The position numbers were made by a program, and so were the translations under genes. 64,000 nucleotides of DNA from positions 274,690 to 338,689 of the forward strand of contig NW_018407994.1 in NCBI RefSeq assembly GCF_002113885.1, written 5' to 3'. This document shows positions 418-54,975 of the stretch, piece after piece. The DNA comes from Mizuhopecten yessoensis (taxonomy: Eukaryota). The notes under the pieces are model-generated. The model ran no database searches, was not told where the DNA came from, and saw only the letters and a program-made list of their open reading frames with translations. Numbering within the stretch: position 1 is the stretch's first letter; every line of letters starts with the position of its first letter.

Positions 418-460
418 TTCTCAACTGTTTGAGTTCAACAATCAACATTGGTAAACCTAC

Positions 461-551
461 TTTTTGGTAGAGGAGTCAACTTTTTCTTCATAGCGAATTC
501 TGTTTTCCATGAGGCAGCTCCAGCATCAGTGGAATCGTTCTTGGCTTTAAG
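461..551 (-). CDS. Minus-strand gene exon (LKAKNDSTDAGAASWKTEFAMKKKLTPLPK)
   Basis: tgacag acceptor; donor gtaggt (or gtttac 4 nt further on). Confidence 0.8.
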
Positions 552-3500
552 CTGTCAACGAAGAACGTGTGTGTGAAATAAATACTGATTTAGATCACCT
601 AGCTTGAGGACAATAACCAAAAATGAAATCTTTATCAATAAGTACTGCCATGAATGTGTAAAGCAACGTAACATTTTATAGTAGAATGGCTCGGCAGTAT
701 TTTCATTCCGTAATCAGATGTTTCTTAAATCAATGATATAATTTTTAAAAATGAATTTCAACAGTTCACAAAGCAAGAGGTGGTGAGAAAAATGTTTTAT
801 TATTAAAAATATAGGATATTTTATTCTCGATTGATGGACAAGGGGAGATAACACAAACATTTTCTATATGACAGTTTGTGAATTGACTGACATCCCATCA
901 GGGAAAGCTTTAGCATTGGAAGATAACACCACTTTCTTATTTACCGTAAAGCAGGATATTTCCACGGTTATATTTGCGCAGTTTTGCGGCTCAATAAAGT
1001 GTTAGAGAAAATATGATTGGCAGAATAATATGACAAGCGTAATAATGTGCTGCTATGATAAACTTCAAAACTGTAATGTCATCATGAAATAGCGCATACG
1101 TGGTTGTGACGTTTCATTACACATACAAGAGGCCCAAGGGTCTTAGCGGTCACCTGAGTTATATTATAGGTACCGGTAGCTCAATTTCATTGTTGGGATG
1201 TGACGTGGAAATCAACATGTAAACTAAGTGAAATACAATACTTGTCATGTCATCAAAGGATAAGAATTTTAAAAATATTTGTAAATTTTCCCTTTGGAGC
1301 CCCACCCTAGCCCCTGGGGATGGGGCAGGAATCCCAATTTCACTGTGTAATACCCTCATCCACCAAAGATGATTGTGACCAAGTTTGAATAATTATCGCA
1401 AAGAATGGATAAAATATACCCAAAAGTGTTATTTCCCTATATAAACTATAGTAAACTTTACCCCCTCCCCAAGGGAGGACGGATGGCCCAGGCGTCCTGA
1501 AATTTACAATTAAAATAAATCCCCTGATGATTTTTTTATATTACTATAGCACCTCTGAGTCTGGAGAAGAAGATTTTTTGAATATTGGTTATTTTTTTCT
1601 TTGGGGCCATGTCCTGGCCCCTAGTGTTGGGGTAGGAATCCCAATTTTACAATTTGAAAACCATCTTCCTCTAATGATGTTTCTCACCTAGTAAGAATAA
1701 TTTCCAACAGAAAATTGTCAAAATATACCAAACCAAATGTGTTATTTCTCTGTATAAACTATAGATTTGTGAAAATATCAACCACAAAAAGCATGATTTT
1801 GGGAAAATAAAGTGATTTTTGCTTTTATCTTTGGGGAAAACACCAGAAATTATCCAAGGGAAAGGGGCATTCAAAAGGACCCAAAATTGACCTTGAAAAA
1901 TCACTGTGAATGTCCAGTCTCTGCGCTAACCCACTACACAATTCATGTTACTTCAAATGTCTAGATCGCAAATTTATATTCCATGTAAATTCAATTTTCT
2001 ATTTTTGGGTCAAATCACAAAATTTTAAGCCCGCGTAAATAACCTGCTATACGGTTCATGATCATGGTTACTTTCCTGAATGTTATTGATTTAAACATAT
2101 TTTAATGCAAAATTTGCAAATGGATTAGGCACAAGTTATTCCAACTTATGAAGTCTTCTCCCAGATTTTTGATGTACATGGCAACATCAATTGATTTTAC
2201 ACAAATCAATAAAGAAGAATGTTAAATAAGTACCTAAAAGACAAACTTTAGTAAGAGTATGTAAGAAATATAAATGTACCGGTGTATCCACACTGTTTTC
2301 CTTGCGTAACTTCCTTCTCTCTGCCAGGTCCCTTTTCCACTGTGGAATGGAGGTGGAGTCTGCTGACGGTGGCGTTATGATGTTGAGGTTTGGGGTGGAT
2401 TGGTGACGGTTGTCCGAGGTCTTCAGCCAGCTAGGAACATACTGGTCCTTTGTGCCTCCTATTTAAATACACAGTGGTCAGTGAATAGTTTTAACATGCT
2501 TTGCTCATTAACTCATTCCCCCCCTGAAATTTCATAATGAACTATTCCAACCTTTGAATTGGAAGAGTTCAAATGTGTCTTCAGGGGTGAATGAGTTAAT
2601 ACTTTCTTTCCAATAATTTTACTAGAAGAAAGTTTTGCAGTCAGCAGGTATGCATAAACTGGGTCAGTATTTGTTATTCTAATAATCCTGTTTCCACACA
2701 AATGTTATCTGATCACTATTACAGCCATCGCATTGACAGTTTGTTTGTTAAAGTTTTACACCCTTACAACAGCTAAAGTCATAAGAATTTAGTCCTAAAA
2801 TATGAAGACTATCCTTAACCCATCATGTAACTCTATTTTTACGCATACAATCAACCCTTTCACCACTGTAGACCAAAATAGACTCATCAAGATCAATGCA
2901 TGGTAGAGTCTACTAAAGTTACATAGGGATGGAAGGGTTAATCAGATATCTGTACTGGACAATCAAGTCAAGAAAGTATTTCCAACCTTGTTCAGTTTGA
3001 TTTAACAAGGAACAGCTGAATTTAGAGATAAATAACAGAAGTGATGCCGTATCGTTAAGGATGACTTACCTGATACAGGTGTGCGTTCTCTACTTGAGCT
3101 AGAACTAGAGCTGTCACCATCTTTTGATCCTGTAGATGTGAGTCTGGTTCGTCGCGTCTCCTGGTTCGGGTTCCCGTTGATTGTGTTCTCACTGCTCTCT
3201 GTTGACTCTTGGAGTGGGAGACCATTGGGCGTCTTACGGAGGCGGGGCATATCCGTCCACTGAGGTTTACCATCACCTGGTGTTTTGCTTTGGTTTTCTT
3301 TAAAATCAGAATTTGTCATTCATATCCATCATTTCATTTACTTTTACAGTATGTTAATTTTAAAATTGATTATTCACAATATGCGTAAAGAGTAGTTCAG
3401 TTACCTCCCTTACAAAACTCTCTCAGGACTAAATCTATGTGTCATTTATATCAATAAGACTTTTCAACACAGAGAATGAATTTCTATTCAACTCCATTTT

Positions 3501-6500
3501 TTTTAAAAAGAAAGCATCTTGGTAGTACATAATAGAATGTATTTTGGTTTAGTATTATCTTATATTTCATTTCACCTTATCTTGAGTGTTTAAAATCAAC
3601 ATTATCTTTTGATCAAGTAATCTGCATTCAAGACAGTGCAAGAGAATATGATTTAAGCACTGTCAATCAGTTCTTGGATGGAGTTGTCCAGAAATCCAAA
3701 AATACAGGGAAGTAAACATCTGTATAAATTTCTCACCTTTTGTGTTGAGAATCTCTGCAGCCTTTTCTCGTTTCTCTGCAGCGGTTTTCATCCATAGCGG
3801 AGTTTCCGTTTCCTTCAACTGGTCCAGACTCTCTTCAGACTTTGTACTTGTCTTTCTCAACTTCATATCCTTCAGCCATGACGGTTCTTCCTCCTTGCTG
3901 GCTGCCGGCTTACTTCCCTCAATCTCTGGCTTCGACGACTTTGGAGTATTCTTTAGTTGAGGAACATCAAAGGTATGCTTGTTTTCTGTAGACTCTTTTG
4001 TAGCGTCATCAAAGTCTAATTGTGTACCAACAGGGCAGTTGGGTCTATTCCTCAAGTTAGGGACTTCAAATGCCCCACCACTGCTCAGCTCAGAGCTGTT
4101 ACTACGAGGAACCCTAGGGGTTCTCTTTAGTGACGGTAAGTCAAATTTACCCTTACCCTCTGGACTAGCTGGGGGGTCAACATTTACTTTGGGAGTATTT
4201 CGGAGTGGAGGTTTATTAAAAGTTTTTTCAGACTCAATTTCCTGACTTTCTGATCGTTTTAGTTCACTTGAGACTGTTTTCAGTGCAGGTACATCAAATC
4301 TGCCTTCATTTTCTGGTGAAATCTTTGATCTGCTACTTTCCTCTTCCCTTTGTACCTTCTTTAATGAGGGCGTGTCAAAAATATTTTCAATTTCCTGAGC
4401 TGTTTTAACAGGTGATTTTTCACGCTTAGAATCAACTCGCCTTAGTGGTATATTGTAGGGTGTTTCCGTGGCAACAGGGTCAGGTGCTGTATCAACCTCC
4501 ATTTTGGGGACAGTTTTCAGTTGGGGTTTGGTAAAAAGTTTTTCTGTTTCAGCCTTCTCAGTGTGCCTGGCAGGTTTATCTGGTGCTACAGCTTTCAGAG
4601 CTGGAATTTCAAACACATCATTTTTCTCAACAGCTTTTTCTGTTTCTTGAGGTGAAGTTACTTTACGCAGAGCTGGCTTTTCGAATTCAGGAGACACAGA
4701 CGTTTCCTCCTGTCTGTCAGACCTCTTTGTTGGTTTAAGTTGTGGCATTGGTAATTTGATCCCCATAGCTTTGGGGTCTCTCTTTGGCTCCACAGGGACC
4801 ATTTCCTCATCAGGAGAGGCTCTGGGTTGTGGAGTTTTCCTTGGCAACATGGGCTGTACACAAACAAAACTTAGTCAAAATATTGTTGGTTAAATATCAT
4901 TAAAAGCAGAAAAATCAAAATCGTTTTAACATGAAGAAACATTAAACATTTATTTGATCTACGGTATTAGTGAATTGAGAAACGAACAGACATTTTATGA
5001 TAACGTTTTACAAAACTCATTTCAACAAAACATATTAATTTACTTTTCTTTTTAATATTCATTACCTGTCCTGTATGTGACTCGGGGAATAAGTAAAAAT
5101 AGTTTTTCAAGGATTTCAATTTCAAGTTAGGTTATCTAAGTGTAACAGTCCAAATTTATCATAATGTGAAATTTCTTTCATTTCTGATAGTCATAAAGTT
5201 ACAAATTTGATAAAACTTGTCACCGTCCTATCATGGAGGCAGACTCTTTTCTTTTTTTCTTTTTTTCAAATCAGCAGAATTTCCTCTATCTTGCTTTTAG
5301 CTCATATTCAATTAATTCATTTTTTTAAAATAGATTTTATTTATATTTTGTCGAACAGAAAATAATGATTTAAGACAATGATAGATTATGTTATGGAGTT
5401 CTCCTTCAAGGAAAATACTTGAAAGTTAGGCAAATGTTTGCTTTCTAGCAATGAAAAAGCTTGATCTTGCACGAATAAATATTGCATAAATGCCTGTTTT
5501 ACTGTAGACAGACCCACCTGTCCTAAACCAGGTAGAGGCATCATAAGGTGACTTGACTTTTTTGCCGGTGGCGAGGTTGGATCCGGAGAACCAGACTTGT
5601 CCCCTGTGAAAACTTCTTCCTCCGCACCAAAACCGTTCACCTCAGAGGATGGGGATTGTTTGGTCTCTGGAAAGCAAAGGAAATATACCTGGGTATGTCA
5701 AATAGACTCCAAAACATGATATTTAATCAACGGTGACTTTCTGTTAATTTTTCTATCCTGCAATACCACTGACCAACAGCTGAAAAATATATATCTTGTG
5801 AAAACTTCATTCTCATTACTTGAATAATTCAGTATGTATTGACAATCAGTATATGATTGTGTAAGTCACTATACCCACCTGTAGTGTCCTGGAAGTGGCT
5901 ATCCTCGGAGGAGCTCAGGATGTTTCTGACGTTGGTACGTGTGGGCTTGCGTCGCCGGGCCAGAGAGCCTTTCTTTCTGAGAGATGTCTTCTGCTTGCCA
6001 ATGTTCACATCCAGATGCGACGTGTCCTACAGGATATTTGTCACAGAGGTCAACTAAGGTCGAATCAATATCAATGTGTCTAACAGAGGTCAACTAAAGT
6101 CACACCAGTATCAGTCTGTCAAAATACCACAAAGATGCAGAAATTTTCAAGATTCTTGCAAAAATGTGATTGTTGTGTGTGAGGTAAGAATTGTGGAATG
6201 TGAATAACTCCGAGCCATCATCAAAAACATCCTCAGTCATTTATCAGCATGTAACAAAAGCAAAAGTCACAAAGGGCTGGCTATGATCACAATCAAGTAG
6301 CTAAGCTTTCTACCAGAGTTGTCCTTAATTATCAACTCCTAGACCATCCATTTAAAGGCACAGGTCTTGATAAGTGGTAATTAACTGGTTGATTAACACC
6401 TTACATCGCTTTCTTTATTTAATATATTGAACTATGAAACGTGACAATTAGAAGATTTAACAAATTATGACCATCTTGTTAGCAATTTTCAAATTATAAA

Positions 6501-9500
6501 AAAGAAAATTTTCTTAGAGCCTGTTTTCTTTTCCCGATTTTAAAACTATCTGAGCTAATGTCTAGCAAAAAATTCCTAAAAGAAATGTAATAAAACAAAT
6601 ATCAACAGTCTTGCTTGATACAAGCTTTCGAGTTTAACCTTTCATCAGGGATTGTGTGTGTGGACCTCACCCTTATGTCATATCAATATTTGAGAACTAG
6701 AAGTTTGCAGACTTTTGGATGTGACAAAGGTGAGGACCATTCAATCCCTGGTGAAAGGCTTAGCTGGAAAGCTGGGATCCAGAGTGAATGATGATATCTA
6801 TCTGAATTTAGTTATATAAACATGATACACAACACTCACTCATTGTTGAACCTCTTAACAATTAACAATTACGCTTTCTATGTAGATATTTACCCCAACA
6901 TCATTGAAGTCCAGACTAGCCTCTCTCTTGAGCTTGCTGTTCTAAAAACACACACAAAGCAGCTATAAATAAGAAAGCAAAGTAATCTAGCTCACACTTC
7001 AGTTTTGAAAGTGGTCTCTTAATGCAGGTGGTCTTCAAAGAGAGGTGGGCTCTCAAGCAGGTTTGAAAGCAAGGTAATCTAGCTTTCTTTTCTACCTTAT
7101 TGTTTTAAAAACACATATAAAACATCTATAAAAACAGTCAAACATATAATAATAAATAATGATAATAATTTGAGGTTCTAATATACTGTTTTATTACAAC
7201 CTAGTTTGTAGGTTGCTCAAAACAGTTCACAAACTATTTTAAGTGGTTATAGGGCCTTTTGCAACCAGCCAATATCTTTCTCAACTCCCTGGGGAGAATA
7301 CAGCCGGTGCTGCCATTTCGGCGCTCACAGCTAGCATTCTACAGTTTTAGCACTACCCAACCACATACTCATTTACAGCTGAGTAGACTGGAACAAGCGG
7401 AGTAAAGTATCTTGCTCAAAGATACAACACAGTGCTGTGACGTGATTCAAACTCGCAACCCTTCGGTCTCGAGTCCGGCGTCCTACCACGAGACTTCTGT
7501 GCCACCCCATATACTCAGAGACAACCTTTGGAATGTTTATAAAGTTGTCACGTATTGCAGGTGGTCTTTTAATAAAGACGGTCTCTCAAGTATAGGATTG
7601 AATGTTATAAGACAACGTACTATAGCTCTCTCTTTATCTCGTTTTTCAAGGCATACAATCAGCTATAAATATTGTCCAACTTTGTATTCAAAGATCCATT
7701 GTAGCGGGAAGTTTACAACTTGTGTCTTAATTACAGGTGGTTTCTAATACAGATTTAGTTAACACGGAAATAACTGCATTTCGGAGATTTAAAAGTGGTC
7801 GCTTATATATAACAGGTGGTTTCTGAACATGGTGGTCTCCTACCACATGTGCATGAATAAAGCTGGTCTATGAATAGAGTTATAAATGTATACTTGTAAA
7901 CTTGTTAGATATCTTACTACTGTTATGTCAGTTGTTGTATAAAGAAATTCAATATTTGCAAATCTTGAAGAAATGAATAATCATTTTTGCATTCTGATTG
8001 AGAGCCCCATTGTAACAAGAGGCCCAGAAGGCCTAAATCGCTCACCTGTTTCTTTTGTTACATGAAACTGACATATAGGTAACTTCAGACCAAATTTGGT
8101 AAGTAGAACACAAGACATTTTAACATCTCTTAAACGCTTAAGATATTGCTGTTTAAAATTTAAAATTGTAATTTTAAAGCTTTTAACCCACATTGACCAT
8201 TGACTCCGGCTAGCACTTAAAGTTTACATTTGACCTCATAACTGTAATAAAGAAAAAGATTTGCACTGCTGGTCTTCATAACATACCCAAGTATCATGAC
8301 TCTAGACCAAATGATTCTTAGCATATTGTCGTTTGAAGATTTTAACATTTTTTACTCCTGTGACCTTGAAAGTAGGTAAAGGTCATTTTAAAGAAAAAAA
8401 ATTATAGTACTCCATCCCTGGTACCTACTGGCCAAATATCATGATCCTGGGCCTTATGGAACTTGAGAGGAAGATTGTTAAAGCTTTAAACCCATGTTGA
8501 CTTTTGACCCCCAACTAGCACTTAAAGTTGACCTTTGACCTCATTACTGTAATTTGGAAAAAGATTTGCACTGCTGGTCTTCATAACATACACAAGTATC
8601 ATGACTCTAGTTCAAATGGTTCCTAGGATATTGTTATTTCAATTTTGAACATATTTGACCCTTGTGACCTTGAAAGTAGGTCAAGGTCATTTTAATGAGA
8701 AACCTTTATAGCACTCCATCCCAGGTGCCAAATATCATGACCCTAGGTCCTCCAGATCTTCAGAAGAAGTCGTTTAAAAGAAAATGTTGACAGACGGACA
8801 ATGGACGACGGACAACAGACGCCGCAGTACGGCATAAGCTCAAATGGCCCTTCAGGCCAGGTGAGCTAAAAACTGAACTAGCGTAAAAAAAGTTTAAAAA
8901 ATCTTTCGTCAAGCATATTTTCAAAACTACCGAAATTCAAAAGGAAACCAATTAAATGTTTGTAAAATATACATATGCCCGTCTTCAATTCCTTGCTTTG
9001 ATGGAAATGGAGCTAAATGCAAAGATTAGAAGCTAAAAACAGAACATATAGGTCACAGTGACCTACATTTGATACATTGGTGTAGCACTCCTATGAAGAT
9101 CCCAGACGAATGTGTTGGACTTTTAGTATATACAAGTATTGAATCTTAAAGAAAATTCTAATCAAGATGTGGTACATAAGAACCAATGGCAAAAGGGAAA
9201 CACTTAATGCTTCAATCAATTATTGTGGAGGAATCAATATGGACTATTTACATGTAAAGTGATTATGATCACCTGGTTACAAAAATAAACAATTTTTTCC
9301 CTTAATTTTCTGATACGTCTCAAGCTTTTAATTAACAACCTGGCCCAGTATAATTGTCTACATGTAGACCAATTATATTTGTTCAATTTTTTCGAAATAT
9401 GCAACAGTCAAGTTAATGTTCAAGAATTTCTAATCAGACACCGAAAGGGGCTTTACAAAATATTTTATAGAATAATACAGCAACTAAATTAGCCTTACCT

Positions 9501-12500
9501 CTGTGATAGCTTTATCATCACATAAATTCTCCATATGTGTAACAAGATCCATTATGACAGCACAAGGAATAATTTGCAGGCATCACAAATTCATGACAAA
9601 GGCAAATATTTTGGCATTTTGCCTTGGTTTTCTTTTTTTTCCTCCAAAAATATTTATTTTAGGTGATTTGGTGATGGACGTGATAAACAGAATCTCAAAC
9701 TCTTATGAATGTATTGTTTGACAATGATTTTGAATTCTTGTGAATAGAAATGAGGACAAAAATGTCTTATGAAACACAGACGATTGACAGCTACTATATA
9801 TGAGAACTCACCTCTGTTGTACTGTCATCCATGTCGGACAGAACAGCCTCTTTCTCATCTTGGTCATGAGTTTGAGTGTCGGGCTCATCATGATCAGTCA
9901 CCATCACTTCAACGTTTGGTTCCGGTTCATCCTCTACGATCTCCTCTTCCTGTTGTGGTTCCTCTTCGTCGGAGGTCAAAAGGTCTGCAACTTCGGTTCT
10001 AGTCTCCTCTACCTCCCCAAATATCTCGTCAATGGTCTTCTGGTCGTCCGATATCTGCAGTGGTTCAGCTTCCTTAGAACCCTCCTCCTTATCTTTGACT
10101 CGGCCTACTCTTTCCTCAAACTGTGTGTAGGTCTTTTTGCTCTGAGCTGCCATAGCGTTGAAGGATGCATCCGTGATCTGTCAGAAGTCATTAGAAAAAC
10201 CTCAGGTTTCCTGTCATTTAAACTACTGGGATGACGGATTCTTTTTGTGAATTTTCATTCTAACGATTGCACTTCAGAAGTATTTAGTGTAAGAATTTTT
10301 AATGTTTTGAAAAAGGACCAGTAGCATATTGATCTCTCAATTGAATTGTTTCAGTAAATATTCACATAATTTTTGAAATTAAGAAATGATTTCTTCATGA
10401 TCTACTGTTCAGTATTTCCTTTGTGTTATCATGTATTACTGTTGTTTTTCTGACTTTCACTGTCACAGCAAATTATTAACCCTTTCACCCCTAGGTAACT
10501 GTAGTAGACTCTACCATGCATTTATGGGGATGAGTCCATTATGGTCTACAGTGGTGAAATGATTAAGATATTCGTCACTTATCAAATATACTTAAATGCT
10601 TTATATCCATTATAAAGCAAAAATGAAAGTTTTCAAAATATGAAATCATGTTCTATTTTTTTACCAAAATCATCACATTGAGTTTATTTTTCAAAGACAA
10701 GAAATTACTCAATTTTCTATCAATGTATTAATGTTTTAAAAGTAGGTTCGTCTAAAATTGACAGGTAATCAATCTGAAAGTTTTCATATTTAGTAAAGGA
10801 ATCGAGTGAAAACCATTTTCCATCATATCAGTAGAGGTCTACTCTCTGTAGATACAGTAACACTGAGTAAACATACTCAAGGTTGATAATAATGTTGATT
10901 TATGCATAATATTCTTATTCCTGTATATTATTTGCATATGTCAGTTTCGTTTAAACAAAAGCCAGAATCACTGGGACATAAGGATATTGTCCAAGTAAAT
11001 AAAATTGTTAATTGAAATTGAGAAATATTGAAAGACAATTTTTGTGAGAATCAGTTTTTTAATAAGTCAAAATACTTCAGCACTCACCTTATAGAATTGT
11101 TTTTTTTTAAGAAATCAGGGTAATTAATAGAACTTGCATGCTTTCCAGCTGTGAGTTATATGTGCTTAATCAAACTTTTTAAGATTTTCAAGATTTCAGC
11201 AAAACATTGTGAATGTGGTATTTAAAATTTAAAACCATGCTTCATGTTTTCATGCCATTGACAGTACATTACAGCGTTGCAACATAAGTTCAAGGAATTA
11301 TATATATACATAATTAGTGCGATTCCAGTTAAACATCTCAACCATGAAACAAAGAAAATCACTCATACATTACAGGAAGCATTCTAACCCAACATAAAAA
11401 GCAACTCTAAAAGTTAGCACAAAAATTTCATTCAGGAAAGAAATAGACTAAAAGCAACTGAATATTAGTGACATTTAGTTGTGTTAATTTGTTGTCAGTT
11501 CACTTGTTATAGGTGCATGCATAAGTTAGTAAAATCATTTCATAAACTGCGGAAAAATTGCTGTATTTCTCTACGGCAAATTAGAAATATAACTGACATG
11601 TCTAAATCTTGTTTTTATTTAGAGTAAAACTTAGTACCAACATATTTTCTGATTTTGTCCCATTTCCACACCCATCACCTCAACATAAACAGATACTTTT
11701 TACAGCATTGAAAAATTATTTTAATTGTTTTTTGTTTTTATTTCTAGCCTCAAAAAAATATTTCTATTTTAGGTAGATTTTTTTATTTAATCTTTTCAGT
11801 TACATTTAGTTAAAAAAAAATAATCTTAAAGATATTTAAAAGTTTTCTTTTTTAACCTGGATCAATTGATTTTAGTTTTAAACAAACCTTTGAATATTGA
11901 GAAATTTATAGAAAGTAGTAAAAGGATATTTGACATTCAGACTCAGCGTAAATAGAAAAGATTGCTAGAGGTTTGAGAAAAACTTGGAAATTTTCCATCA
12001 GTTAACAAACCTGCGGACTTAGTGACCCGGTGGTCAAGATATCATCAATGTCAGCATCAAGGTCGTCTTCTTCCAGACCAGCCAACAAGTCCTCAAAACT
12101 CCGCTCCATCGTCTGGTGGTGAGCAAAACATTCTCAAGCACAGGTATCACCATAGAGATCAAGCTCATTCAAATACGCGAGTGTACCAAAACTTGAACAG
12201 GTGATTTTATTTTAGTCCGAATAAAAATTTGTATATATTTTATCATGCATCAGTATATGTGATAAGAAAAGTACCAAGGTGTGCAATATAAATGGAACAG
12301 CTCAGTACAACAACTCAATGAAGTAGTATCAGATCAGACATAATAAATGTACTTATATTTCATCAGGAACAATTTTCAAGTTACATGCATCAAGGGCCAA
12401 CTGTACACAGTTAAACTTTATTAGAAAATGTATCCATCTGGACGGACAGACAACAGACCATGCACAGAAGGCAGTCCCAACATTTGAACACAGTTACAAT

Positions 12501-15500
12501 TCCTATTTCAAAATTTCAAATTAATGTATAGTTGAATGGAGACAATAAATTTAGAAATTAAAAAATGTATGAAGAATAAAAACAGGAACACACACAAAAT
12601 TGGCAAATGTAGATGATACAGTATAAGATATCACTGGGTAAAATGGTGTGAGCAAAGGGCAATAACTCTGTATATGGAAAACAATGTTGAAATTGTAGGT
12701 TGCAGAGTTCCAGGCATAGGGATGCACACTCTAAAGGACAGCCTGATAGACAGAGATTGCAGTAGATAGTTTATGGACCAAAAATACCTGGCTTACTTAT
12801 TCTGTACTATTTTTAATCAGCTAGTACTGGTACTGGTAACAAGAAAAAGACATTTTTCTTCTTATCTTGTCTGGAGAATTCCATCTTTGCATATTGCAGA
12901 GTTATCTTCTCTTGTGAGCAGGTATTGATTGTTATGTCATTGGTTTGTGCGAGAAAATTACGTCGCTTTTTCTCAAAAATTGATGACGTAACTCTCACAA
13001 ACATGTGACGTAACAATCAATACCTGCTAACAAGAGAAGATAACTCTGCAATACGAAAAGACGGAATTGTTACAGAAAAATACTTAATGTTAATGGTTTG
13101 ACGCTAAAAAACCTTCTGTTAATAACTGATAGGAATTGTTTTCCATAATATAAAGGGCTGCATATATACTGGTGAAATATTTTGCACTACACCTATAGGC
13201 ACTAGAAAAAGTCTTTATTCTAATGGGAAGGTTTTTAATTTTCAACTAGAAACAAAACGCACCAGGAAAAGCCAATAATCTATTTTAATCGAATTATTTT
13301 CTTAGAAACAAACAAAATGCTGATGTTGCATATTAGATGATTTGTAAAAATATGTACATGAATATATATACTATATAAAGTATTATATATATGTGTGTAA
13401 TAATGAAAATATGATATAAAAGAATATATATATAAAGATATTTTTCCACAAAACATGCTATTGTATATATATGGTGAGAATATTAGGAGAAAAGAGACAA
13501 TTATAAATTTGGGGTGTGTGATGGGTGTCTATCATTAATATTAGTGCCAGTTTAAAAAGGTTATCAAATATCAGGAAAAAGTGTGATCACTGCATCGAAG
13601 TTCAAACCACTGTTAGGTTATTTGGGAAACAAAATATGTGATAACTCAACTCTTTTTAATTCTAATATATAAATATGTAACTTACTTAATACAAAAATCA
13701 TTCATTCATTAATTAATTAATTAAGAATCACATTCAATACATCATTAAATATTGGAAATTATTCAAAAGCTATGTTTTTAAATTTGCAACCTCTGTAATG
13801 ATAAGCCTTATACATGTATATACCATGCTGTTCGAGTCATACTCAGCATATATATATGCAAGGAGTTACCAGAGATCCGTTAATTCAATAGAGAACAATT
13901 CCCACATACTGGTATCTACTAGCTAATATTATGTATTAACTAGCTTTGCTCTTCTTCACTATTTCGTGTTTGGAAATTCGGCATATTCGTAAATAGTAAT
14001 CTGTTTCAGTTATTTCCACACTCCAGGTACAGTAGAAAGATTTTACGAGCCTGTTACAGTATTGATTTTTCTCTCTCTCCCGATATCGCCTATAAACATT
14101 CCGGCACATGCAACATGCCTTGTTTGTGTTATGTATCTCTAACAATAAAACTAAACAAAAAGATATTTAAAGCGAAATGTTGTAACTGTTTGATCGTACA
14201 TAATTTTACAGACTATACTAACACAGTTGTTTATAAAATCACATTCATAGGTTAAGTAGTCATGCTATTTCTGTACAAGTGCTTGAAATTCTCACCCTGT
14301 TCAGTTTGCCCCGTTTAGGATCTGCCATGTTTTCTTCCCTTTCGGAGGGCCAAGTTTCGTTTGCAAAGTCAAGCAAATTAGGTCGCCCTGCAGGCTGGAC
14401 AGTGTCCGAATCTGATCCAGAGGTCACTGTCCACTTCTTGAGTGTTGGCTCACTTTCCGATGTCTCCTGTTAACACAAAGTCAAGGTTACATAAAGGTCA
14501 ATCAAGATTATTACTTTCCCTACCATAGAAATATAGAAAACGGCCAAGGTCAGTCTATATCACTGTGAGAGAGTGGAACTCCAATAGGCCGAAAAATAAA
14601 AAAATACTTGTACTTCCCGTGAAAACTATGAGGTCAGTCTACATCACAGAGAGTGGAACCCCAATAGGCCGAAAGTTAAAAGATACTTGTACTTCCCGTG
14701 AAAACTATGAAAAAAGTTACAAGGTATAACACAGTGAAGCACTGATCTAAATATTAATGTTCCGTATTCAATTGTCATCACTTGCTTACTGTCAATGGCT
14801 AAATGTTTCCATTTCTTAATAATTCCTTTATGCATTTTCCTCAATACATTATCAAACAATACATGTCCATGTCAACTTAGATATTACCATTCATTTATAA
14901 AGCCATCATTTCTCTAGGCAAATGGTCTGGCAGTATAATCATTGTACAAGAATTTACTGTATATGTAGACAAACATTATTTTTTCAAAACATCTTTTTTT
15001 CATTTGTTATATGGAGTACATTACAGTACAGTATATATACATACTCTGTCTTTTGAATTTCTTGTTCAAAATTGGCGTAAAATTTTACAAGTAACACATT
15101 TAAATGTAGTGTAGGTAGATTTACCCAGAAAAAGGGATCTTTAGTAATTATAAGCCATCAATCTGACTCTGATGGTGTGCTAATCTACCTATACGATTCC
15201 AGATATACTTGTTCAGTGAAAATCTTGTTTCATCTATTTGGAAAGTTTCACCCAAATTTGTCTGGAATAATGAGGTTCCACCACACATGTAACGAGTGAA
15301 ATGAAGGTCAAGTATATTCTGCAACATTTCTCACATACAGGTAAATTGACTTATTGATTAATGTTACTGAGGTCAAATCAAACATTAACACAATTAAATG
15401 CATTAAAAATATTTAAATCCGCGGAAAACATTATATATTTATACCCGAATTAAATTGTATTTTTCATAATTTCAGAGAATTCAATACATTCCAATTAATT

Positions 15501-24500: not shown

Positions 24501-27500
24501 CTAAATCTTGGCGCTACAGGGCTAAAGTCCACATTCAGGCACCTTTGGATCCCTACAGTTCCTCCATTTATCATTCCTACAGAATTGGATACAATGTGGT
24601 TGAGTGCTTTAAAGGAAGTTGAAAATGTAAAATGTTAATGGACGACAGACAAAAATATGATGGACAAAAGACAAAGATGAATCACAATCGGTCACCGAGC
24701 CTTGATCTATGGTAACCTAAAAGCATGTATTGATCTCCTCCTGTCTGTTAATTCTATAAAACCCTTTATTTTAGTATTATGTAATAGAAATAACCTGATA
24801 CATGTACATGTAATGTCAAAAGATCAAATTTCATCAAAGTTATACAGGAATAGAAAATATCAAGATTACAGATAAAGGCTGAAAGTGGGAGACAAATGTT
24901 TTAACCCATAACCCTTAAAGTCACATTTGAACCTTACCAAATCAAAGACCGGGCAAGTCCAGTTTGAATATAAAGGGTGAATGAGTTAAGAATGGATGCA
25001 GTATATATATCTTTATCAAGTTTTACAATTCAAGCTTGATAACATATATGTGTAGTTATACTGATGGAAATCTTGAAAGCTAGTTTGAGATGAACGAAGC
25101 AAAAGGCGGGTTATGCCGACTGCACTGAGTAACATTTCCCCCATATACATAAAAGTTGAGCACTCCAGACTTAACCAATCAATACGGTACATCCTCTCGC
25201 AAATCTACTTATCAAGGATCAAAGCCATGCAAAGTGAGGTCTTTCTGCATTCATCCTTGCATAAGACCGTGTAGTGTATTATGTTTATCCCTATTTGGCT
25301 GTTAGCTAAATATCCGTGGCGACAAATTCTCTTTCTTTTCTCGCAAAATTCAGTTATATTGGTTGGATGTTCTTTCTGCAAATTGTTCGGGCCTTTTATG
25401 TTTTTAGATATTTCCAGATGATTTCCAGACAACTGTAAAATACCAGAATACTGCATTTATGTATCGAAATCCATAAATACATGTATAAGAAATAATCTGC
25501 ACATGTTATGGAAAGGCCGGATTCAAAAAGGGTGTGCAATTTTTATTTCTTTAATTTCCCAACATTTTCAAACTCCTAGTTATATATTCCACCATAATAT
25601 ACAAACACGGTTTGATTAAATTTCTTCTATCACACTAAATGTACACATGAAATGTTACGAACTGCATTTTTACCTGACTAATCAAATATAAGGTAGCATA
25701 ACAAAGAGAATTGTAGGGAAGATTTTGAAATGCTGATTGACCATGCATGCATTGTTCGGGCACATGTTGCATCTGTTGTCTAATAATCCATGGTATTCGA
25801 CCAACGAATATTTTACTGGTAACAAAAAACACAACTTTAGTTTCATTCAGCCTAACCCAGACAGAGCTACAGCTTTTGGATGGGTTACAGATAGCTAACA
25901 TACAAGGTTATCGTAAAAGTGACACTGGGGATACATAACATTTTAAAATGTCAGAAACATTGCCTCTAGTTAGACTTCAGTTTTCCTGAGGGTATTACAG
26001 CTCATAAAACTAAGACATTTTTTATGTGAAAAGTGAAAACTTCATAAAAAATAAAATGAATTTATAACATTCCAGTGAAAATATAACAATTTAAGTAAAT
26101 CTATATACTAGCCCCTGTTCATGAACAATATTCCCAAGAAAGTTATGAAAAAATAAATCTCAAAGGATTTTTTTTCCAAACCCCAGCAAAAACTTTCTAT
26201 GGAAACAATTTGATGTACTTTTTCAATATTTGCTTAGGAACTTATATTATGTGAAACATGTGCCCGAAAGGCATGTATGCAATCCACATGGTTAAACTTT
26301 GACATTATAAAAAACACAACCAATGTACTTTAACTTTCACTGTAAGATGGCAAGACTTAAACAAACTGACCATCGGGTCCGGATGCTGACTAATTGGCTA
26401 CCTGGTCAATACATACCTGTCTATACCTGTATTTTCCACAGCAACAGGAACACTTTTTGGACACTTTGTTACCCATAGTTTCGTGAGAAATGTTCCGAAA
26501 TCAAGACTCATTTCACCAAACAACCTCTTCACATCGAGGGAAAAAAACTTACAACTTTGCCAAATTTTCGATGTGTGTAGTGTATATATGTGTAACCTGC
26601 TATGGAATGCAGTAATCCAGTAAAAATCTGCCAAACACTCTCTGTTGAAGGGATAAAGTTTCATTCTCAGGCTGAGTCAAATTTCAGCTGTTTTGGATCC
26701 CTTTCACCCAACACTTCCTTACCAAAAGCCCAGTGTCTTTGATGCTCTGTATCATAGCACTATGTAGAAGGGTGTCTACACTTCACCACTTAAAAGCATC
26801 AACAGCTTCCAGCTACATTCAACAAGAAGATAAACAATTCGGGTTGTCTCAAAACTGTTTTGAATAAATCACCACCAACATCAACAATTTTGTAAACAAC
26901 TTAAGAAATTGCGTAACATGTGTATGTAAAAAAAATAATCAAAAAATAACAGAACAATTTAAATATTTGTTTAAATCAACTTGTACACTGGTCAGAAGCT
27001 AAAAGTACTCATGAAATCATGAGATTAGTAGGGGGTGGGGTGAGGGGGGAAGGGAGGTAATGATACACACATGTAGGGATAACCTCATACATCATACGCT
27101 AATTGGCACTCTCAGCCATTATATTATCACAACATGGGTATCACAGTGCTGCAGATCTGTTTGTTTTGTCATTGCTGGCGCCATAACATTTAATCTGACC
27201 GCCCTAATAGTAAACAATATCTGGGGTCCACTTCTCAGTTCTAACTGCACTGCTGGAGGAACTGATTGATAAGACGGAGTTTATTTTAATGGTTTAGATC
27301 CCCTGTATTATGACACATTCATAGACGCATCAAAGTTGTATATTTATATAGGGGTTAATGAGCAGTAGATTCTCTTGTGGACTGTTAATGAAATAAGTCA
27401 TTTCTCACTTTCAAACAAATTCTTTTGGGACTAATTAAGTACAACCAAGACATTTCAGTCAGGGCAATTAACTGGCATATGGCCACTACAAATCAGAATC

Positions 27501-42900: not shown

Positions 42901-44021
42901 TTGGCTTTGTCAGAAATATATATGGAATGACAGGACATTTCCACAATAAACATTAATAGTTAAACGAACAGGTGGTAAGTTCAACACAATCCTGTTTGTG
43001 CATAATAGGAATAATAATAACCTTAATGTCTAACATTGCTGTTGACATATAGCTATAGGTGCATTATGTAGATGACTACCTGTCTGCATGGTTATGGCGA
43101 AATAGCACATAAAAAGCCATTTACCTGTCACACACGCACGGGCTCATATATATACACCACTGCTAACCTGTGCACATAATTGTCACATCTTAGATCACCC
43201 TTTACAATCAACAAAGCAGGGCCGCATAATGACACAAGACGGACTCAGTACAAGACATAAAACTTCTAAGCTTTACATTACAGCTAGTACACATATTATA
43301 TATTTCTGTTTACAAGGAAAATATAAGAAGCAAACAGTTACACAGAGCACATAATGCTTTAACCAAAGGATAGGCTAGGTAAGAAGCTACATGTATCTAT
43401 AAAAAAACCATCCAATTGCTGGACTGTGTAAAGGAGAAACCTACCACCACATAAAATAAATCAATAAAACAAAGAGGTTACAACACGAAACAACATCCAT
43501 GTCCAACAACATCTTACTAGATAGCCCAAGCCACAGTGCGAACGACAGAGGGTGTGAAATGCACATGCGTTGTGTAGGAATACCTGTGTGGGCTTGAGTG
43601 GTGATGTGGGAGCTAGGGGATCAAACAGGAGTGCATCCTCGTCGCTGAGGGAACCCACGCTGGATTTAGACTGGCGCGACGGTGTCAAGTCTATCTGACC
43701 AGGTATAACGTCCAGTGGTTGCCAGGGAGATGTGGGCGTTATGGCTGATTTACCAGTGGTCAGAGTATTAGATCCCTGATCAGCGACATCGTCCATTTTG
43801 AACAGACAGAAATCACCATCCTTTGAGAATTCCTTCTGTTCACTATCGTCAGTGGATGACTCTGTAGTTGGGGCACCAAAATCTAACAGCAGAGAATTAG
43901 ATGTATTCGATACTCCGGGTCTATTTACCACCTGAATCGCACCTGCTGAGCTCTGATTAGCAGCAGCTGGACCAAAGTCTAAATCCAGTAAGTCATCAAT
44001 AGATGATGTTGATGATGTCAT
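461..44021 (-). CDS. Large disordered TNKS1BP1/KIAA1671-like protein, 3'-partial: complement(join(461..551,2280..2458,3070..3297,3737..4853,5518..5666,5879..6026,6894..6941,9812..10177,12011..12112,14296..14466,43584..44021))
   Basis: Eleven exons, each bounded by AG/GT, join in one open frame (~1010 aa). The segment LDFNDVG-DTSHLD...FQDTTE...PSS..EEE...LPGL resembles the recalled TNKS1BP1 C-terminal DFSFIEDTEILD...FQDSTE...PSSDEE...FPGL. The gene model is solid; the family call is moderate. Confidence 0.85.
944..2054. mobile_element. Non-autonomous TIR DNA transposon with a nested, 3'-truncated HINE (~1125-1770)
   Basis: ta|CCGTAAAGCAGGATATTTCCACGG at the left matches the reverse complement of CCGCGTAAATAACCTGCTATACGG at the right; internal ACAAGAGGCCC...GTCACCTG HINE start. 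Confidence 0.7.
2280..2458 (-). CDS. Minus-strand gene exon (GTKDQYVPSWLK...IPQWKRDLAERRKLRKENSVDTP)
   Basis: aaatag / gtacat, phase 1-0. Confidence 0.9.
2508..2599. mobile_element. TTAA-flanked 91-bp MITE, subfamily A (others at 29681-29771, 30322-30414, 36479-36569, 63225-63315)
   Basis: TTAA-CTCATTCACCCCTG...CAGGGGTGAATGAG-TTAA. Confidence 0.88.
3070..3297 (-). CDS. Minus-strand gene exon (NQSKTPGDGKPQWTDMPRLRKTPNG...RERTPVS)
   Basis: tttaaag acceptor (an in-frame CAG alternative would start the exon at 3276), gtaagt donor, phase 1-1. Confidence 0.85.
3737..4853 (-). CDS. Minus-strand gene 1117-nt exon with FxxPxL[KR] repeats
   Basis: gtacag / gtgaga, phase 0-1; lies within the 395-aa ORF. 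Confidence 0.93.
5518..5666 (-). CDS. Minus-strand gene exon (TKQSPSSE...MMPLPGLGQ)
   Basis: ttccag / gtgggt, phase 1-0. Confidence 0.9.
5879..6026 (-). CDS. Minus-strand gene exon (DTSHLDVNIGKQKTSLRKKGSLARRRKPTR...FQDTT)
   Basis: ctgtag / gtgggt, phase 0-1; core of the TNKS1BP1-C-like segment. Confidence 0.9.
6894..6941 (-). CDS. Minus-strand gene exon (NSKLKREASLDFNDVG)
   Basis: ttttag / gtaaat, 16 codons. Confidence 0.82.
7146..7506 (-). mobile_element. tRNA-derived SINE (Meta-core-like)
   Basis: A/B-box-like head; TGTTGTATCTTTGAGCAAGATACTTTAC core; CTCCCCAGGGAG; (TTA)n tail; second copy at ~40400. Confidence 0.85.
8014..8872 (+). mobile_element. Non-autonomous Helentron-associated (HINE/pearl-like) element
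   Basis: AACAAGAGGCCC start; GCTCACCTG/CAGGTGAGC subterminal inverted repeats; internal ~305-bp repeats with TGACCTTGA; GGAC microsatellite; 3' hairpin plus A-run. Confidence 0.85.
9812..10177 (-). CDS. Minus-strand gene acidic exon (ITDASFNAMAAQSKK...MDDSTTE)
   Basis: tgacag / gtgagt, 122 codons. Confidence 0.9.
12011..12112 (-). CDS. Minus-strand gene exon (TMERSFEDLLAGLEEDDLDADIDDILTTGSLSPQ)
   Basis: caccag / gtttgt, 34 codons, phase 0-0. Confidence 0.85.
12877..13068. mobile_element. ~190-bp palindromic MITE
   Basis: ~60-bp TIRs (TATTGCAGAGTTATCTTCTCTTGTGAGCAGGTATTGATTGTTA); second copy at 24182. Confidence 0.88.
14296..14466 (-). CDS. Minus-strand gene exon (ETSESEPTLKKW...NLLDF...MADPKRGKLNR)
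   Basis: taacag / gtgaga, 57 codons, phase 0-0. Confidence 0.85.
14547..14711. repeat. ~83-bp tandem duplication
   Basis: AGGTCAGTCTA...CCAATAGGCCGAAA...CCCGTGAAAACTATGA occurs twice. Confidence 0.85.
16645..16780. repeat. 30-bp tandem repeat, ~4.5 copies
   Basis: ATTCAAATGTGTCATCAATTCTTGTGTACT. Confidence 0.9.
17800..19850. repeat. 60-bp satellite array, ~33 copies
   Basis: CAACACAAGTTGTCCCCAAGGCCAGGACTCAAACCTGAGCTTACCTTTACCTTAGAGGTT; copies line up in 60-column register. Confidence 0.97.
20333..20423. mobile_element. TTAA-flanked 91-bp MITE, subfamily B (others at 2851-2941, 10476-10566, 23292-23382, 31772-31862)
   Basis: TTAA-CCCTTTCA...TGAAAGGG-TTAA; piggyBac-like ends. Confidence 0.88.
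24182..24367. mobile_element. ~186-bp palindromic MITE, opposite orientation
   Basis: Same TIRs as 12877-13068. Confidence 0.88.
24901..24989. mobile_element. TTAA-flanked ~91-bp MITE, subfamily C (others at 29518-29608 and partial 52562-52635)
   Basis: Same termini; different spacer sequences. Confidence 0.82.
26417..26476 (-). CDS. Candidate alternative first coding exon MGNKVSKKCSCCCGKYRYRQ
   Basis: aaactATGG Kozak context, 20 codons, CAG/GTATGT phase-0 donor compatible with the exon at 14466; myristoylation consensus plus Cys cluster. Confidence 0.68.
28020..28630. repeat. 57/58-bp minisatellite, ~10 copies, alternating dimer; related degenerate units at ~27610-27740
   Basis: ATTTGTGTTA(A)GAGTGACTTCCCTTAAGGATATATGCTACCT[CT]ACACATTATTCCTG[TA/AG]. 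Confidence 0.95.
32543..32744. repeat. 100-bp tandem duplication
   Basis: GTCAGGCCTTAATTAAC...CCCAGCAATGTC occurs twice, nearly identical. Confidence 0.93.
35550..36210. repeat. ~117-bp tandem repeat, ~6 copies
   Basis: GACAGGTGATCTTTATAAAGAGGTTCAAATTC recurs at ~35588, 35710, 35827, 35944, 36061 and 36178. Confidence 0.93.
36950..36971. repeat. (TG)n microsatellite preceded by (TA)n
   Basis: Directly visible. Confidence 0.9.
37681..38715 (+). mobile_element. HINE-like element with ~150-bp internal tandem units; contains the assembly gap
   Basis: Same termini as 8014-8872; GGACGC repeats; TGGCAC-TTC-GTGCCA hairpin. Confidence 0.85.
38073..38196. other. Assembly gap (124 N)
   Basis: Run of n. 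Confidence 0.99.
40400..40940 (-). mobile_element. Same tRNA-SINE (40400-40752) plus two tandem extra copies of its head
   Basis: Homologous to 7146-7506; B box GGTTCGAGTC; head repeated with ~92-bp period. Confidence 0.85.
41016..41750. repeat. 52-bp minisatellite, ~14 copies
   Basis: ATTCATTCATTTCGACAGTATCTCCCTAGGTACTCATCCTATTATTGAGCGT. Confidence 0.96.
42064..42300. repeat. ~18-20-bp minisatellite TTCCATGTCC[TA]TATTATA
   Basis: About 12 tandem copies, followed by inverted ACATGGAA copies at 42315-42450. Confidence 0.92.
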
Positions 44022-53600: not shown

Positions 53601-54905
53601 CTAGTAATGATTGAGGTATTTTAGTATAATATGTATACATGTATCCTTGTAAAGAGTTCAAAGAGATGTTTCAGTAAGATAGCAAGAACTATGAACACTT
53701 TTTGAAAATTATTTAATTTATGATTTTCACTTGAAATTGGAGATAAATTTACAAGATCCTTTTATATTACACAAACATTTCAAAACGAAATAAAATTTTC
53801 ATCGAATGTACATATTTGCCAACCTTCTACATTTCCCTGGGGCAGGTGGGAGGAACCATGCGGAGAAATTGACTAAGATTAAGAATGTCTTAAAAAAAGA
53901 GGCACAAGGTCCAATTGGACAAAATTGTAATGCATAAATTGTTATTTTTCTAGCTATTCTGTGCAATGAAAAATTGAATTTGAACAAAAACCTAGATGTA
54001 TGGAATTGTGCTGATTTCCAAAGTTAAAAGTGAAAATGGAAAATCAGGAGAACTAGTGTTCCTCCAAAATAAAGAGACTTGAAAAATATGCATGATTACA
54101 TTATGATTAGTCCATTAAGAGGAAAAAAGTATATGTCAAGTGATTAAGGACACTAAATTTGTTTGAACTGTCATGCAAATCTGAATCTGAATTTTTCCAC
54201 ACTAAAAAGGCCAAGTAGCTGTTGTAAACCTCCATATTTATTACATAACAAATATGTGGTCAGCAAGATTTCAATTAGTAATTAAGATTAGTGTAGTTAT
54301 CCAATCCATGCAAATTATGCTCGTCTGCACTTTTAATATGATAAATAGAGTGCAAAATAAATCACAAAAAGGAAAAATGAGAATGTCTGGTGGTGTAATC
54401 ACAGCGATCTCTTTTAATCTTATAATGATTGATCCAAATTTAGCACCCTTTTTTTAAATGGAAATTCTTTCTAACAACAATATATCACAAGATAACATAT
54501 GAAACTTTTTTTCAGTTCTGTACTGTAGTATGCAGTAGAGAATGGAAACTTCTATTCATCACTGAAATAATTTCAACTAATAATTTGCTGCCCATTGATT
54601 ATATATTATATAATCACGCAAAATGGAATGTTCACAAAATAACATGAAAAAAATCGTTCTATTAAAATACCAAAAGGCTATCCCTTAAAAATTATAGTAC
54701 GATCGTCATTTTTGTAGTTTGCTGTGTATTGAAGCACTGTCAATAACGTGAATACAGGGTACTGTGTTCATACACATTCAGACCCGATAGCATTCATGTT
54801 ATTTTCCCCGTGTCAAATTTTCATAGTGCGATTTCTGAACTTCTAGTTTATGTTTCGGGTTATTTGTTTTGCTGAAGTAAAAACTTCCGCGTTCTCGTGA
54901 CTTAC

Positions 54906-54975
54906 CTGGATAACAATAGAGCAGAGTGCATCCAGGTTGTCTCGCTTGCAGGTGACAGAACTGCGACAGGAAGTG
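54906..54975 (-). other. Probable first (5'UTR) exon of the minus-strand gene; TSS approximate
   Basis: Perfect CAG/GTAAGT donor next to the CpG-containing promoter motif cluster. Confidence 0.65.

What the first reader, a model, noticed from the sequence alone, without database searches (positions are those of the whole stretch)
5518..6941. Invertebrate TNKS1BP1/KIAA1671-like domain, next to SSRP1 as in vertebrates
Seen: three small exons splice to SLDFNDVGDTSHLDVNIGKQKTSLRKKGSLARRRKPTR...FQDTTE...PSSE...EEEV...PLPGL. Known (recalled): the human TNKS1BP1 C-terminus reads DFSFIEDTEILD...NLGRKRGHRAP...FQDSTE...PSSDEEVVEE...LFPGL, is reported to bind actin capping protein, and human TNKS1BP1 lies immediately next to SSRP1 on 11q12. 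Inference: this is a highly diverged orthologue, and the SSRP1-TNKS1BP1 linkage is ancient bilaterian microsynteny. It is head-to-head here but tandem in human.
Basis: partly seen in the sequence, partly recalled or inferred. Interest (0 to 1): 0.8.

Follow-up and report, generated by a model that had tools for sequence, protein, structure and literature searches.

The report
Invertebrate TNKS1BP1-family gene beside SSRP1
A scallop gene with only a generic database name is a distant relative of the human actin regulators TNKS1BP1 and KIAA1671; it keeps the short motif cluster that likely binds actin capping protein, and it sits next to SSRP1 as human TNKS1BP1 does and as its relatives in two limpets and a chiton likely do, so the gene pair likely goes back to the common ancestor of molluscs and vertebrates.

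Summary
Confirmed. The three exons are coding exons 5-7 of a minus-strand gene whose product equals RefSeq XP_021364942 (Mizuhopecten yessoensis, 1,052 aa, named 'SRRM2-like'). The scallop segment itself misses Pfam PF15327 (Tankyrase_bdg_C), but 11 of 22 domain segments scanned hit it. Five pass the curated cut-off: oyster, Lingula, Owenia, Saccoglossus and one unnamed. A profile of three of them scores the scallop at 56 bits (shuffles at most 12.5). The conserved part matches the human capping-protein-binding stretch motif for motif. It differs in four ways: it lies mid-protein, it is followed by a roughly 550-aa tail of repeated short motifs, it has three more residues in the basic tract, and it lacks a strict tankyrase-binding motif. 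SSRP1 is the head-to-head neighbour here. Consecutive or near-consecutive accessions imply adjacency in Lottia, Patella and a chiton, and human TNKS1BP1-SSRP1 adjacency is in print. Aplysia has the two genes on different scaffolds; non-mollusc invertebrates are untested. It is best read as the single pre-vertebrate orthologue of both TNKS1BP1 and KIAA1671. Capping-protein binding is inferred, not shown. A candidate divergent first exon lies about 0.7 kb from the SSRP1 start codon.

The parts
5879..6026 (-). Coding exon 6 (aa 376-425): core motif L-x5-K-x-K-x2-L-x2-K-G-S-x2-x-R-x-K-P-x-R and F-x-D-[ST]-T; corresponds to the human capping-protein-binding stretch
   Evidence: single copy in G000
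6894..6941 (-). Coding exon 5 (aa 360-375): the D-F motif that opens PF15327
5518..5666 (-). Coding exon 7 (aa 425-474): acidic patch and hydrophobic-P-G-L motif
43584..44021 (-). First coding exon of the long isoforms X1-X3 (aa 1-146), acidic with DDL/DPL motifs
26417..26476 (-). Alternative first coding exon of isoform X4 (XP_021364944): Met-Gly start followed by a Cys cluster, myristoylation/palmitoylation-like (motif meaning from general knowledge)
14296..14466 (-). Coding exon 2 (aa 147-203); holds the start codon of the short isoform X5 at 14,328
12011..12112 (-). Coding exon 3 (aa 204-237), skipped in isoform X3
9812..10177 (-). Coding exon 4 (aa 238-359), acidic
3737..4853 (-). Coding exon 8 (aa 475-847): nine F-x-x-P-x-L-[RK] repeats and the first two P-x-W motifs
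3070..3297 (-). Coding exon 9 (aa 847-923)
2280..2458 (-). Coding exon 10 (aa 923-982): P-x-W-x3-L-x2-basic motif; weak Phostensin_N hit, 14.5 bits against a cut-off of 23
461..551 (-). Coding exon 11 (aa 983-1013); the gene continues off the window's left end
54889..55430 (.). Candidate bidirectional promoter: ETS-type CGGAAGT sites on both strands, CRE-, E2F- and YY1-like sites, raised CpG (o/e 0.78), and a perfect minus-strand donor CAG|GTAAGT at 54,908-54,900 (candidate non-coding first exon; untested)
55583..63770 (+). SSRP1 (FACT subunit), coding exons 1-10; continues off the window's right end

Best explanation
The gene is likely the single invertebrate orthologue of vertebrate TNKS1BP1 and KIAA1671, a predicted disordered scaffold whose conserved central motif cluster would bind the actin capping-protein heterodimer, while its repeated tail motifs would likely tether it to the actin cytoskeleton. 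Shown: gene structure, single copy in this genome by the exon search, homology to PF15327 through orthologues, conservation across molluscs, an annelid, a brachiopod and a hemichordate, and adjacency to SSRP1 in this genome. Inferred: the D-F...L-D...K-x-K-x2-L...basic-P...F-x-D-S-T stretch wraps the capping-protein stalk like a divergent CPI motif and loosens barbed-end capping at cortical sites; acidic D-P-F/D-D-L-F motifs, and in isoform X4 lipid anchors, place it on membranes. The SSRP1 linkage is inferred to be ancestral to bilaterians.
For: Pfam PF15327 is the top family for 11 of 22 domain segments, and 5 of 22 pass the 27-bit cut-off: C. virginica 29.5; Lingula 32.3, Saccoglossus 28.7, Owenia 31.7, unnamed P0063 29.9. 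No DUF4592, CAP-ZIP_m or CARMIL_C hit in any of the 22. A profile of the Lingula, Owenia and Saccoglossus segments scores the scallop at 56.2 bits over residues 366-476; the best of 2,000 shuffles scored 12.5. In the 23-row alignment L380, R400, P403, R405 and T424 are in 23 of 23 rows, and K388, G395 and D422 in 22 of 23. The human stretch that binds CAPZA2 (TNKS1BP1 1543-1635, as cited in PMC10092648) has the same D-F-x8-L-D-x4-[RK]-x-R-x2-L spacing and the F-x-D-S-T-E motif (supplement). ESM Atlas lists PF15327 and KIAA1671 clusters at rank 2-3 for scallop and Saccoglossus (0.76-0.80, lead level only). Synteny: Lottia ESP04178/ESP04179 on one 810,649-bp scaffold; Patella XP_050407826-8/825; Liolophura XP_064613502-3/505-6; human order APLNR, TNKS1BP1, SSRP1, P2RX3. 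AlphaFold2 gives pTM 0.18 and two short helices, as expected of a motif cluster rather than a fold.
Against: The scallop and ark-clam segments give no PF15327 hit, nor do 9 other segments. Full-length proteins miss it (0 of 5; 1 of 42, at 15.9 bits), so the passes depend on my cropping. The bivalve profile reached no vertebrate at E<=0.001 among the 18 of 46 hits that were named. The Atlas top hit in both searches was a CRYBG1 fragment cluster (0.78, 0.81), with CRACD-like at rank 7, so the motif may belong to a wider superfamily. The strict CPI consensus is in 0 of 31 proteins, and the profiles matched no CPI peptide in the PDB. Aplysia has the two genes on different scaffolds; Pecten and Babylonia share a chromosome but their accessions are far apart. 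Accession order is a proxy for position and gives no strand.
Confidence: 0.68

Rival explanations
1. The protein carries a motif of a wider capping-protein-binding superfamily (TNKS1BP1, KIAA1671, CRYBG1-type, CRACD/DUF4592) and is the ancestor of several of these vertebrate genes, not of the TNKS1BP1/KIAA1671 pair alone.
For: A CRYBG1 fragment cluster ranks first in both Atlas searches and CRACD-like ranks seventh. The central domain with a long tail of Trp motifs differs from TNKS1BP1 and KIAA1671, where the domain is C-terminal (KIAA1671 1628-1797 of 1806).
Against: Pfam gives only PF15327, never DUF4592, in 22 segments. Atlas scores under 0.9 are leads only. SSRP1 adjacency points to the TNKS1BP1 locus.
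Confidence: 0.25
2. It is a true homologue, but the conserved basic motif serves another partner (CCR4-NOT, nuclear import or membranes) rather than capping protein.
For: Human TAB182 is also reported in CCR4-NOT and DNA repair, and its binding site there is unmapped (PMC7692201). The motif fails the strict CPI consensus, and the basic tract resembles a nuclear localisation signal (general knowledge).
Against: The only stretch conserved between mollusc and human is the one mapped for CAPZA2 binding, and KIAA1671 also co-purifies with CAPZA2 (as cited in PMC10092648). CPI motifs tolerate much divergence (PMC6249002).
Confidence: 0.2
3. The resemblance is convergence of low-complexity basic and acidic patches, and the SSRP1 neighbourhood is chance.
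For: The scallop segment has no Pfam hit of its own, and the proteins are low-complexity.
Against: Five segments from four phyla pass the curated cut-off (one is unnamed). Three motifs are in the same order and spacing as in human. An independent positional signal, the same neighbour, is seen here and implied in three more molluscs; chance for one genome is about 1 in 10,000 (my estimate: 2 neighbours among roughly 20,000 genes).
Confidence: 0.05

Closest known systems
Human TNKS1BP1 (TAB182, CNOT12), Pfam PF15327 Tankyrase_bdg_C
   Same: D-F / L-D / basic / F-x-D-S-T-E motif series with the same D-F-to-L spacing; large predicted-disordered protein; next to SSRP1.
   Different: Domain central with 578 residues after it; 11 residues between the conserved Leu and Pro in 22 of 23 invertebrate rows against 8 in both human proteins (read); no strict tankyrase-binding motif; head-to-head with SSRP1 (human tandem, recalled).
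Human KIAA1671
   Same: Same PF15327 motif series; Atlas rank 3 for the Saccoglossus segment.
   Different: Domain at the C-terminus of 1,806 aa. It lies on another chromosome, without SSRP1, and is likely a whole-genome-duplication paralogue of TNKS1BP1 (both recalled, not tested).
CPI-motif proteins (CARMIL, CD2AP, CIN85, CKIP-1, CapZIP, FAM21/WASHC2, twinfilin tail)
   Same: A roughly 30-residue extended motif in a disordered host, opening with an invariant Leu and ending in a basic tract and an invariant Pro; likely the same partner.
   Different: The consensus LxHxTxxRPKx6P is in 0 of 31 proteins; Leu-to-Pro span is 23 rather than 16; no PDB CPI chain matched.
CRACD/KIAA1211 (DUF4592) and CRYBG1/AIM1
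   Same: Atlas feature similarity 0.77-0.81; AIM1 is cited as actin-binding (reference title in PMC13364712).
   Different: No DUF4592 or crystallin Pfam hit in any protein scanned.
Phostensin N-terminal motif (PF13916)
   Same: Weak hits (14.5-17.2 bits) on the tail P-x-W-x3-L-x2-basic motifs in 4 scans: window exon 10, P0003, P0074, P0086.
   Different: All below the 23-bit cut-off; no RVxF-type PP1 motif in the scallop protein.

Membership tests
TNKS1BP1/KIAA1671 family (PF15327) | Scores at or above the Pfam cut-off of 27 bits, scallop protein itself | tested here: not met
   No hit for exons, full length or cropped segment; no hit of the family in G000, where the control also rang nowhere.
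TNKS1BP1/KIAA1671 family (PF15327) | Orthologues of the scallop protein score above the cut-off, and the scallop is significantly related to them | tested here: met
   5 of 22 segments pass; scallop 56.2 bits against a three-sequence non-mollusc profile, best shuffle 12.5.
TNKS1BP1/KIAA1671 family (PF15327) | Motif order and spacing D-F-x8-L-D-x4-[KR]-x-[KR]-x2-L ... P ... F-x-D-[ST]-T | tested here: met
   Scallop D370, F371, L380, D381, K386, K388, L391, P403, F420, D422, T424 against the human alignment in the supplement of PMC10092648; three extra residues before the Pro.
TNKS1BP1/KIAA1671 family (PF15327) | Domain at the C-terminus | tested here: not met
   317-947 residues run from the core Leu to the C-terminus in the 29 of 31 proteins that match the core pattern.
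TNKS1BP1 orthology group | Neighbour of SSRP1 | tested here: met
   Direct here. Of 8 other species with both genes in hand: 3 have consecutive or near-consecutive accessions, 4 share a chromosome only, 1 has them on different scaffolds.
TNKS1BP1 orthology group | Tankyrase-binding motif (RxxPDG type; pattern recalled) | tested here: not met
   Strict pattern in 1 of 31 proteins (Owenia). A relaxed pattern is present at residue 867 in the scallop and in the other two scallops, but not in oysters or ark clam.
TNKS1BP1 orthology group | Reciprocal best match to TNKS1BP1 rather than KIAA1671, CRYBG1 or CRACD | not testable with these tools
   No vertebrate member was retrieved; Atlas ranks are ambiguous.
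CPI-motif proteins | Consensus LxHxTxxRPKx6P | tested here: not met
   0 of 31.
CPI-motif proteins | Binds the capping-protein stalk and weakens capping | not testable with these tools
   Scallop CapZ alpha and beta exist but only as short exons; no whole subunits were available to fold.
SFM actin-filament motif proteins (VxxLxxxFE, PMC13364712) | SFM pattern in the tail | tested here: not met
   Absent from the scallop protein; a relaxed pattern occurs in 4 of 31 proteins at unconserved places.

The most novel reading that the evidence does not exclude
The first half of PF15327 is an unrecognised, ancient, lengthened CPI-type capping-protein motif. One bilaterian gene carrying it gave rise to TNKS1BP1 and KIAA1671, and perhaps to the matching parts of CRYBG1 and CRACD. 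In invertebrates it is coupled to a new class of tandem actin-binding repeats. It has stayed beside SSRP1 since the mollusc-vertebrate split because the two genes share a bidirectional promoter, whose divergent first exon is visible here at about 54.9 kb.
Probability: 0.25. Interest if true: 0.75.

Novelty: new variant of a known kind. Interest (0 to 1): 0.52.

Why it matters
TAB182/TNKS1BP1 is described as mammalian and absent from Drosophila and yeast (PMC4033318, PMC7692201), and has been assigned several unrelated jobs: tankyrase partner, CCR4-NOT subunit, DNA repair, capping-protein regulator. Invertebrate orthologues show which part has lasted: only the stretch mapped for capping-protein binding, not a strict tankyrase motif. 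That points to actin capping as the ancestral role and names a handful of invariant residues (L380, K388, R400, P403, D422, T424) to mutate in the human proteins. It also puts a function on an unnamed gene family in molluscs, an annelid, a brachiopod and a hemichordate, and adds a mollusc-vertebrate neighbour pair that orthology pipelines would likely miss because one partner is too diverged. It is a solid extension of a known family, not a new kind of system.

Tried and rejected
RNA reads on window 1-17,400: swamped by repeats, no splice joint among the 15 rows shown (92 more not shown); the promoter region was not covered. PF15327 against G000: nothing, but uninformative. PDB sequence searches with both profiles: nothing, and one chance ribosomal protein at E 0.054. 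Complex prediction of tail residues 790-845 with scallop actin given as two exon chains: no answer, score 0.01; counted neither way. A CapZ complex was not run: whole subunits were not obtainable (viral scan empty; prokaryote scan one chance 18-residue match). Metagenome scan with A1: one locus, an off-frame chance match in a bacterial contig. No coding gene was evident between 44.1 and 55.5 kb, but this was checked only by an ORF list and against proteins already fetched. SFM motif rejected. Strict CPI and tankyrase motifs rejected. Literature searches found no paper on invertebrate orthologues or on this linkage: TNKS1BP1+capping protein, TNKS1BP1+SSRP1 (28), CPI motif/CRACD/KIAA1671/TNKS1BP1/CRYBG1 (29), KIAA1671+CAPZ (49), TAB182+Drosophila+CCR4-NOT+ortholog (50), SSRP1+microsynteny (51, 0 papers), CPI motif+CRACD (60, 0 papers), KIAA1671+TNKS1BP1+paralog (73). 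These were judged mostly from listings; subscription journals and supplementary microsynteny tables were not searched. Earlier scan findings: none relevant.
Full report
Observation. The three exons are real, on the minus strand, with AG/GT boundaries at 6941-6894, 6026-5879 and 5666-5518. A search with the middle exon returned 5 proteins among 14 candidates; the best, XP_021364942 of Mizuhopecten yessoensis (1,052 aa, named 'serine/arginine repetitive matrix protein 2-like'), is identical. Twelve AG/GT-bounded exons from 44,021 down into the neighbouring stretch reproduce its first 1,038 residues. The three exons are residues 360-474, so 578 residues follow them. RefSeq lists five protein isoforms: X4 starts in an exon at 26,476 with Met-Gly and a Cys cluster, and X5 has four accessions for one protein starting at 14,328, which implies several non-coding first exons. 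The core exon is single-copy in the genome. RNA reads added nothing, because repeats dominated the lay.

Homology. Pfam does not see the scallop protein, as exons, whole or cropped. Its relatives do. A region search gave 10 bivalve-type proteins among 176 candidates, and a profile of 8 segments found 46 proteins at E<=0.001 among 1.84 billion. Eighteen of the 46 were named: bivalves, gastropods, a chiton, the annelid Owenia, the brachiopod Lingula and the hemichordate Saccoglossus; one more was looked up and has no name, and 27 were not looked up. No named hit is a vertebrate. I scanned 22 cropped domain segments (5; 17 of the 23 printed). Eleven hit PF15327 Tankyrase_bdg_C as top family and five pass its 27-bit cut-off; none hit DUF4592, CAP-ZIP_m or CARMIL_C. 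Full-length scans mostly miss it (0 of 5; 1 of 42), which explains why these proteins carry generic names and also means the passes depend on cropping. A profile built only from Lingula, Owenia and Saccoglossus scores the scallop at 56.2 bits, against 12.5 for the best of 2,000 shuffles. The supplement of PMC10092648 (read whole) prints the human TNKS1BP1/KIAA1671 alignment. By eye, both have D-F, eight residues, L-D, four residues, [RK]-x-R, two residues, L, a basic tract ending in Pro, and later F-x-D-S-T-E. The scallop has the same series at D370/F371, L380/D381, K386/K388, L391, P403 and F420-T424, with 11 residues between Leu and Pro (22 of 23 rows) where human has 8. ESM Atlas ranks PF15327/KIAA1671 clusters second and third, behind a CRYBG1 fragment cluster, all under 0.9 and so leads only.

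Anatomy. AlphaFold2 on the 23-row alignment gives mean pLDDT 60.5, pTM 0.18 and two short helices: a motif cluster, not a fold. The N-terminal part is strongly acidic (net -55 in the scallop), with repeated DPF/DDLF motifs in several gastropods and the chiton. The tail has two repeat types. P-x-W-x3-[LMA]-x1-3-basic-basic occurs 73 times in 23 of 31 proteins, including Lingula, Owenia and Saccoglossus (shuffled total 0.19). F-[DETSV]-x-P-x-L-[RK] occurs 72 times in 10 of 31, the scallops, oysters, ark clam and three unnamed proteins closest to them (shuffled 0.16). The patterns were drawn from these same proteins, so the shuffles show only that they are not compositional. They recall the LKKT/LRKV part of WH2 motifs and the phostensin N-terminal motif (recalled; Pfam hits are below cut-off), but they are not SFMs (PMC13364712 sections 6 and 12 read, supplements searched except one scanned PDF). 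Their role is untested.

Synteny. SSRP1 starts at 55,583 on the plus strand, 11.6 kb from the first coding exon at 44,021, with no evident gene between. Neighbourhoods in other animals could not be read, so I compared accessions and contig lengths. Lottia: ESP04178 and ESP04179, both on an 810,649-bp scaffold. Patella vulgata: XP_050407826-8 and XP_050407825. Liolophura (chiton): XP_064613502-3 and 505-6. Different scaffolds: Aplysia. SSRP1 was not retrieved for oysters, Tegillarca, Lingula, Owenia or Saccoglossus. So of 9 species with both genes, 1 is directly adjacent, 3 are adjacent by proxy, 4 are linked and 1 is unresolved or broken. Bivalve, limpet and chiton span the deepest split in molluscs (general knowledge). 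The human order APLNR, TNKS1BP1, SSRP1, P2RX3 is printed in PMC5485587 (one passage) and agrees with PMC9329103 (passage). Human strands, and KIAA1671 as a duplication paralogue on another chromosome, are recalled.

Promoter. The perfect donor CAGGTAAGT occurs 3 times in the window (expected 0.64; 2 of 100 shuffles reach 3), all on the gene's strand. One is the real donor of exon 9; the others are at 47,135 and 54,908. The last lies just downstream of ETS- and CRE-like sites and 675 bp from the SSRP1 start codon, in a CpG-rich kilobase with ETS sites facing both ways (motif names from general knowledge). A shared bidirectional promoter is a plausible reason for the linkage in molluscs, but no transcript was seen, and it cannot explain a tandem human pair.

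Mechanism. Human TNKS1BP1 binds CAPZA2 through residues 1543-1635, and KIAA1671 co-purifies with CAPZA2. I saw this in passages of PMC10092648 and PMC10093482; the original paper (Ohishi 2017) was not held. That stretch is the one conserved in invertebrates, so capping-protein binding is the most likely ancestral function (about 0.7). CPI motifs are roughly 30-residue peptides that wrap the stalk and weaken capping, in otherwise unrelated hosts, and tolerate divergence (passages of PMC13004031, PMC6249002, PMC10881157 and bioRxiv 2020.02.06.936211). I infer a similar mode, but the strict consensus fails in 0 of 31 matches and no PDB CPI chain matched, so it may work like a CPI protein without being filed as one. 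A strict tankyrase motif is present in 1 of 31, so the name-giving activity is likely a later gain.

Novelty and verdict. Reviews treat TAB182 as mammalian and missing from Drosophila (passages of PMC4033318 and PMC7692201). Eight literature searches, listed under Tried and rejected, showed no report of invertebrate orthologues or of the SSRP1 linkage; subscription papers and microsynteny supplements were out of reach and could hold it. New variant of a known kind; interest 0.52.

Noticed in passing
window 26417-26476 (-): Alternative first coding exon of RefSeq isoform X4 begins Met-Gly with a Cys cluster, a likely myristoylated and palmitoylated membrane isoform; not seen in the other fetched relatives.
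   Followed up: partly
window 47127-47135 and 54900-54908 (-): Two perfect splice donors upstream of the first coding exon; candidates for non-coding first exons.
   Followed up: partly
P0077, P0074, P0086 N-terminal halves: Up to 13 DPF motifs (Babylonia copy 2), 7 DPF plus DPL/DDL motifs (chiton) or several DDLF motifs (abalone), like AP-2-ear or retromer-binding motifs of endocytic scaffolds such as FAM21 (recalled), suggesting a trafficking link.
   Followed up: no
ESM Atlas hits for P0001 355-480 and P0090 270-410: A 239-aa CRYBG1 fragment cluster without a Pfam family ranks first both times, hinting at an unannotated related motif in CRYBG1/AIM1.
   Followed up: no
window 59074-59313 (+): SSRP1 exon carries an Ala-rich insertion after the SSrecog domain, and the following intron (59.3-59.9 kb) is a tandem repeat whose unit begins with the exon's last codons.
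   Followed up: no
window 2521-2600: Short interspersed repeat in intron 9 that draws thousands of RNA reads from elsewhere in the genome; others near 7.0-7.5, 8.0-8.8, 10.5 and 12.9-13.0 kb.
   Followed up: no
window 17700-19830, 42000-42350, 49100-50830: Tandem repeat arrays that give long pseudo-ORFs in several frames.
   Followed up: no
window 56000-56600: Reading frames resembling a fragment of a LINE reverse-transcriptase region in SSRP1 intron 1 (resemblance recalled).
   Followed up: no
P0003, P0004/P0020, P0065/P0077: The Pecten protein repeats a 233-residue tail block almost identically (possible assembly artefact); Tegillarca and Babylonia each have two gene copies.
   Followed up: no
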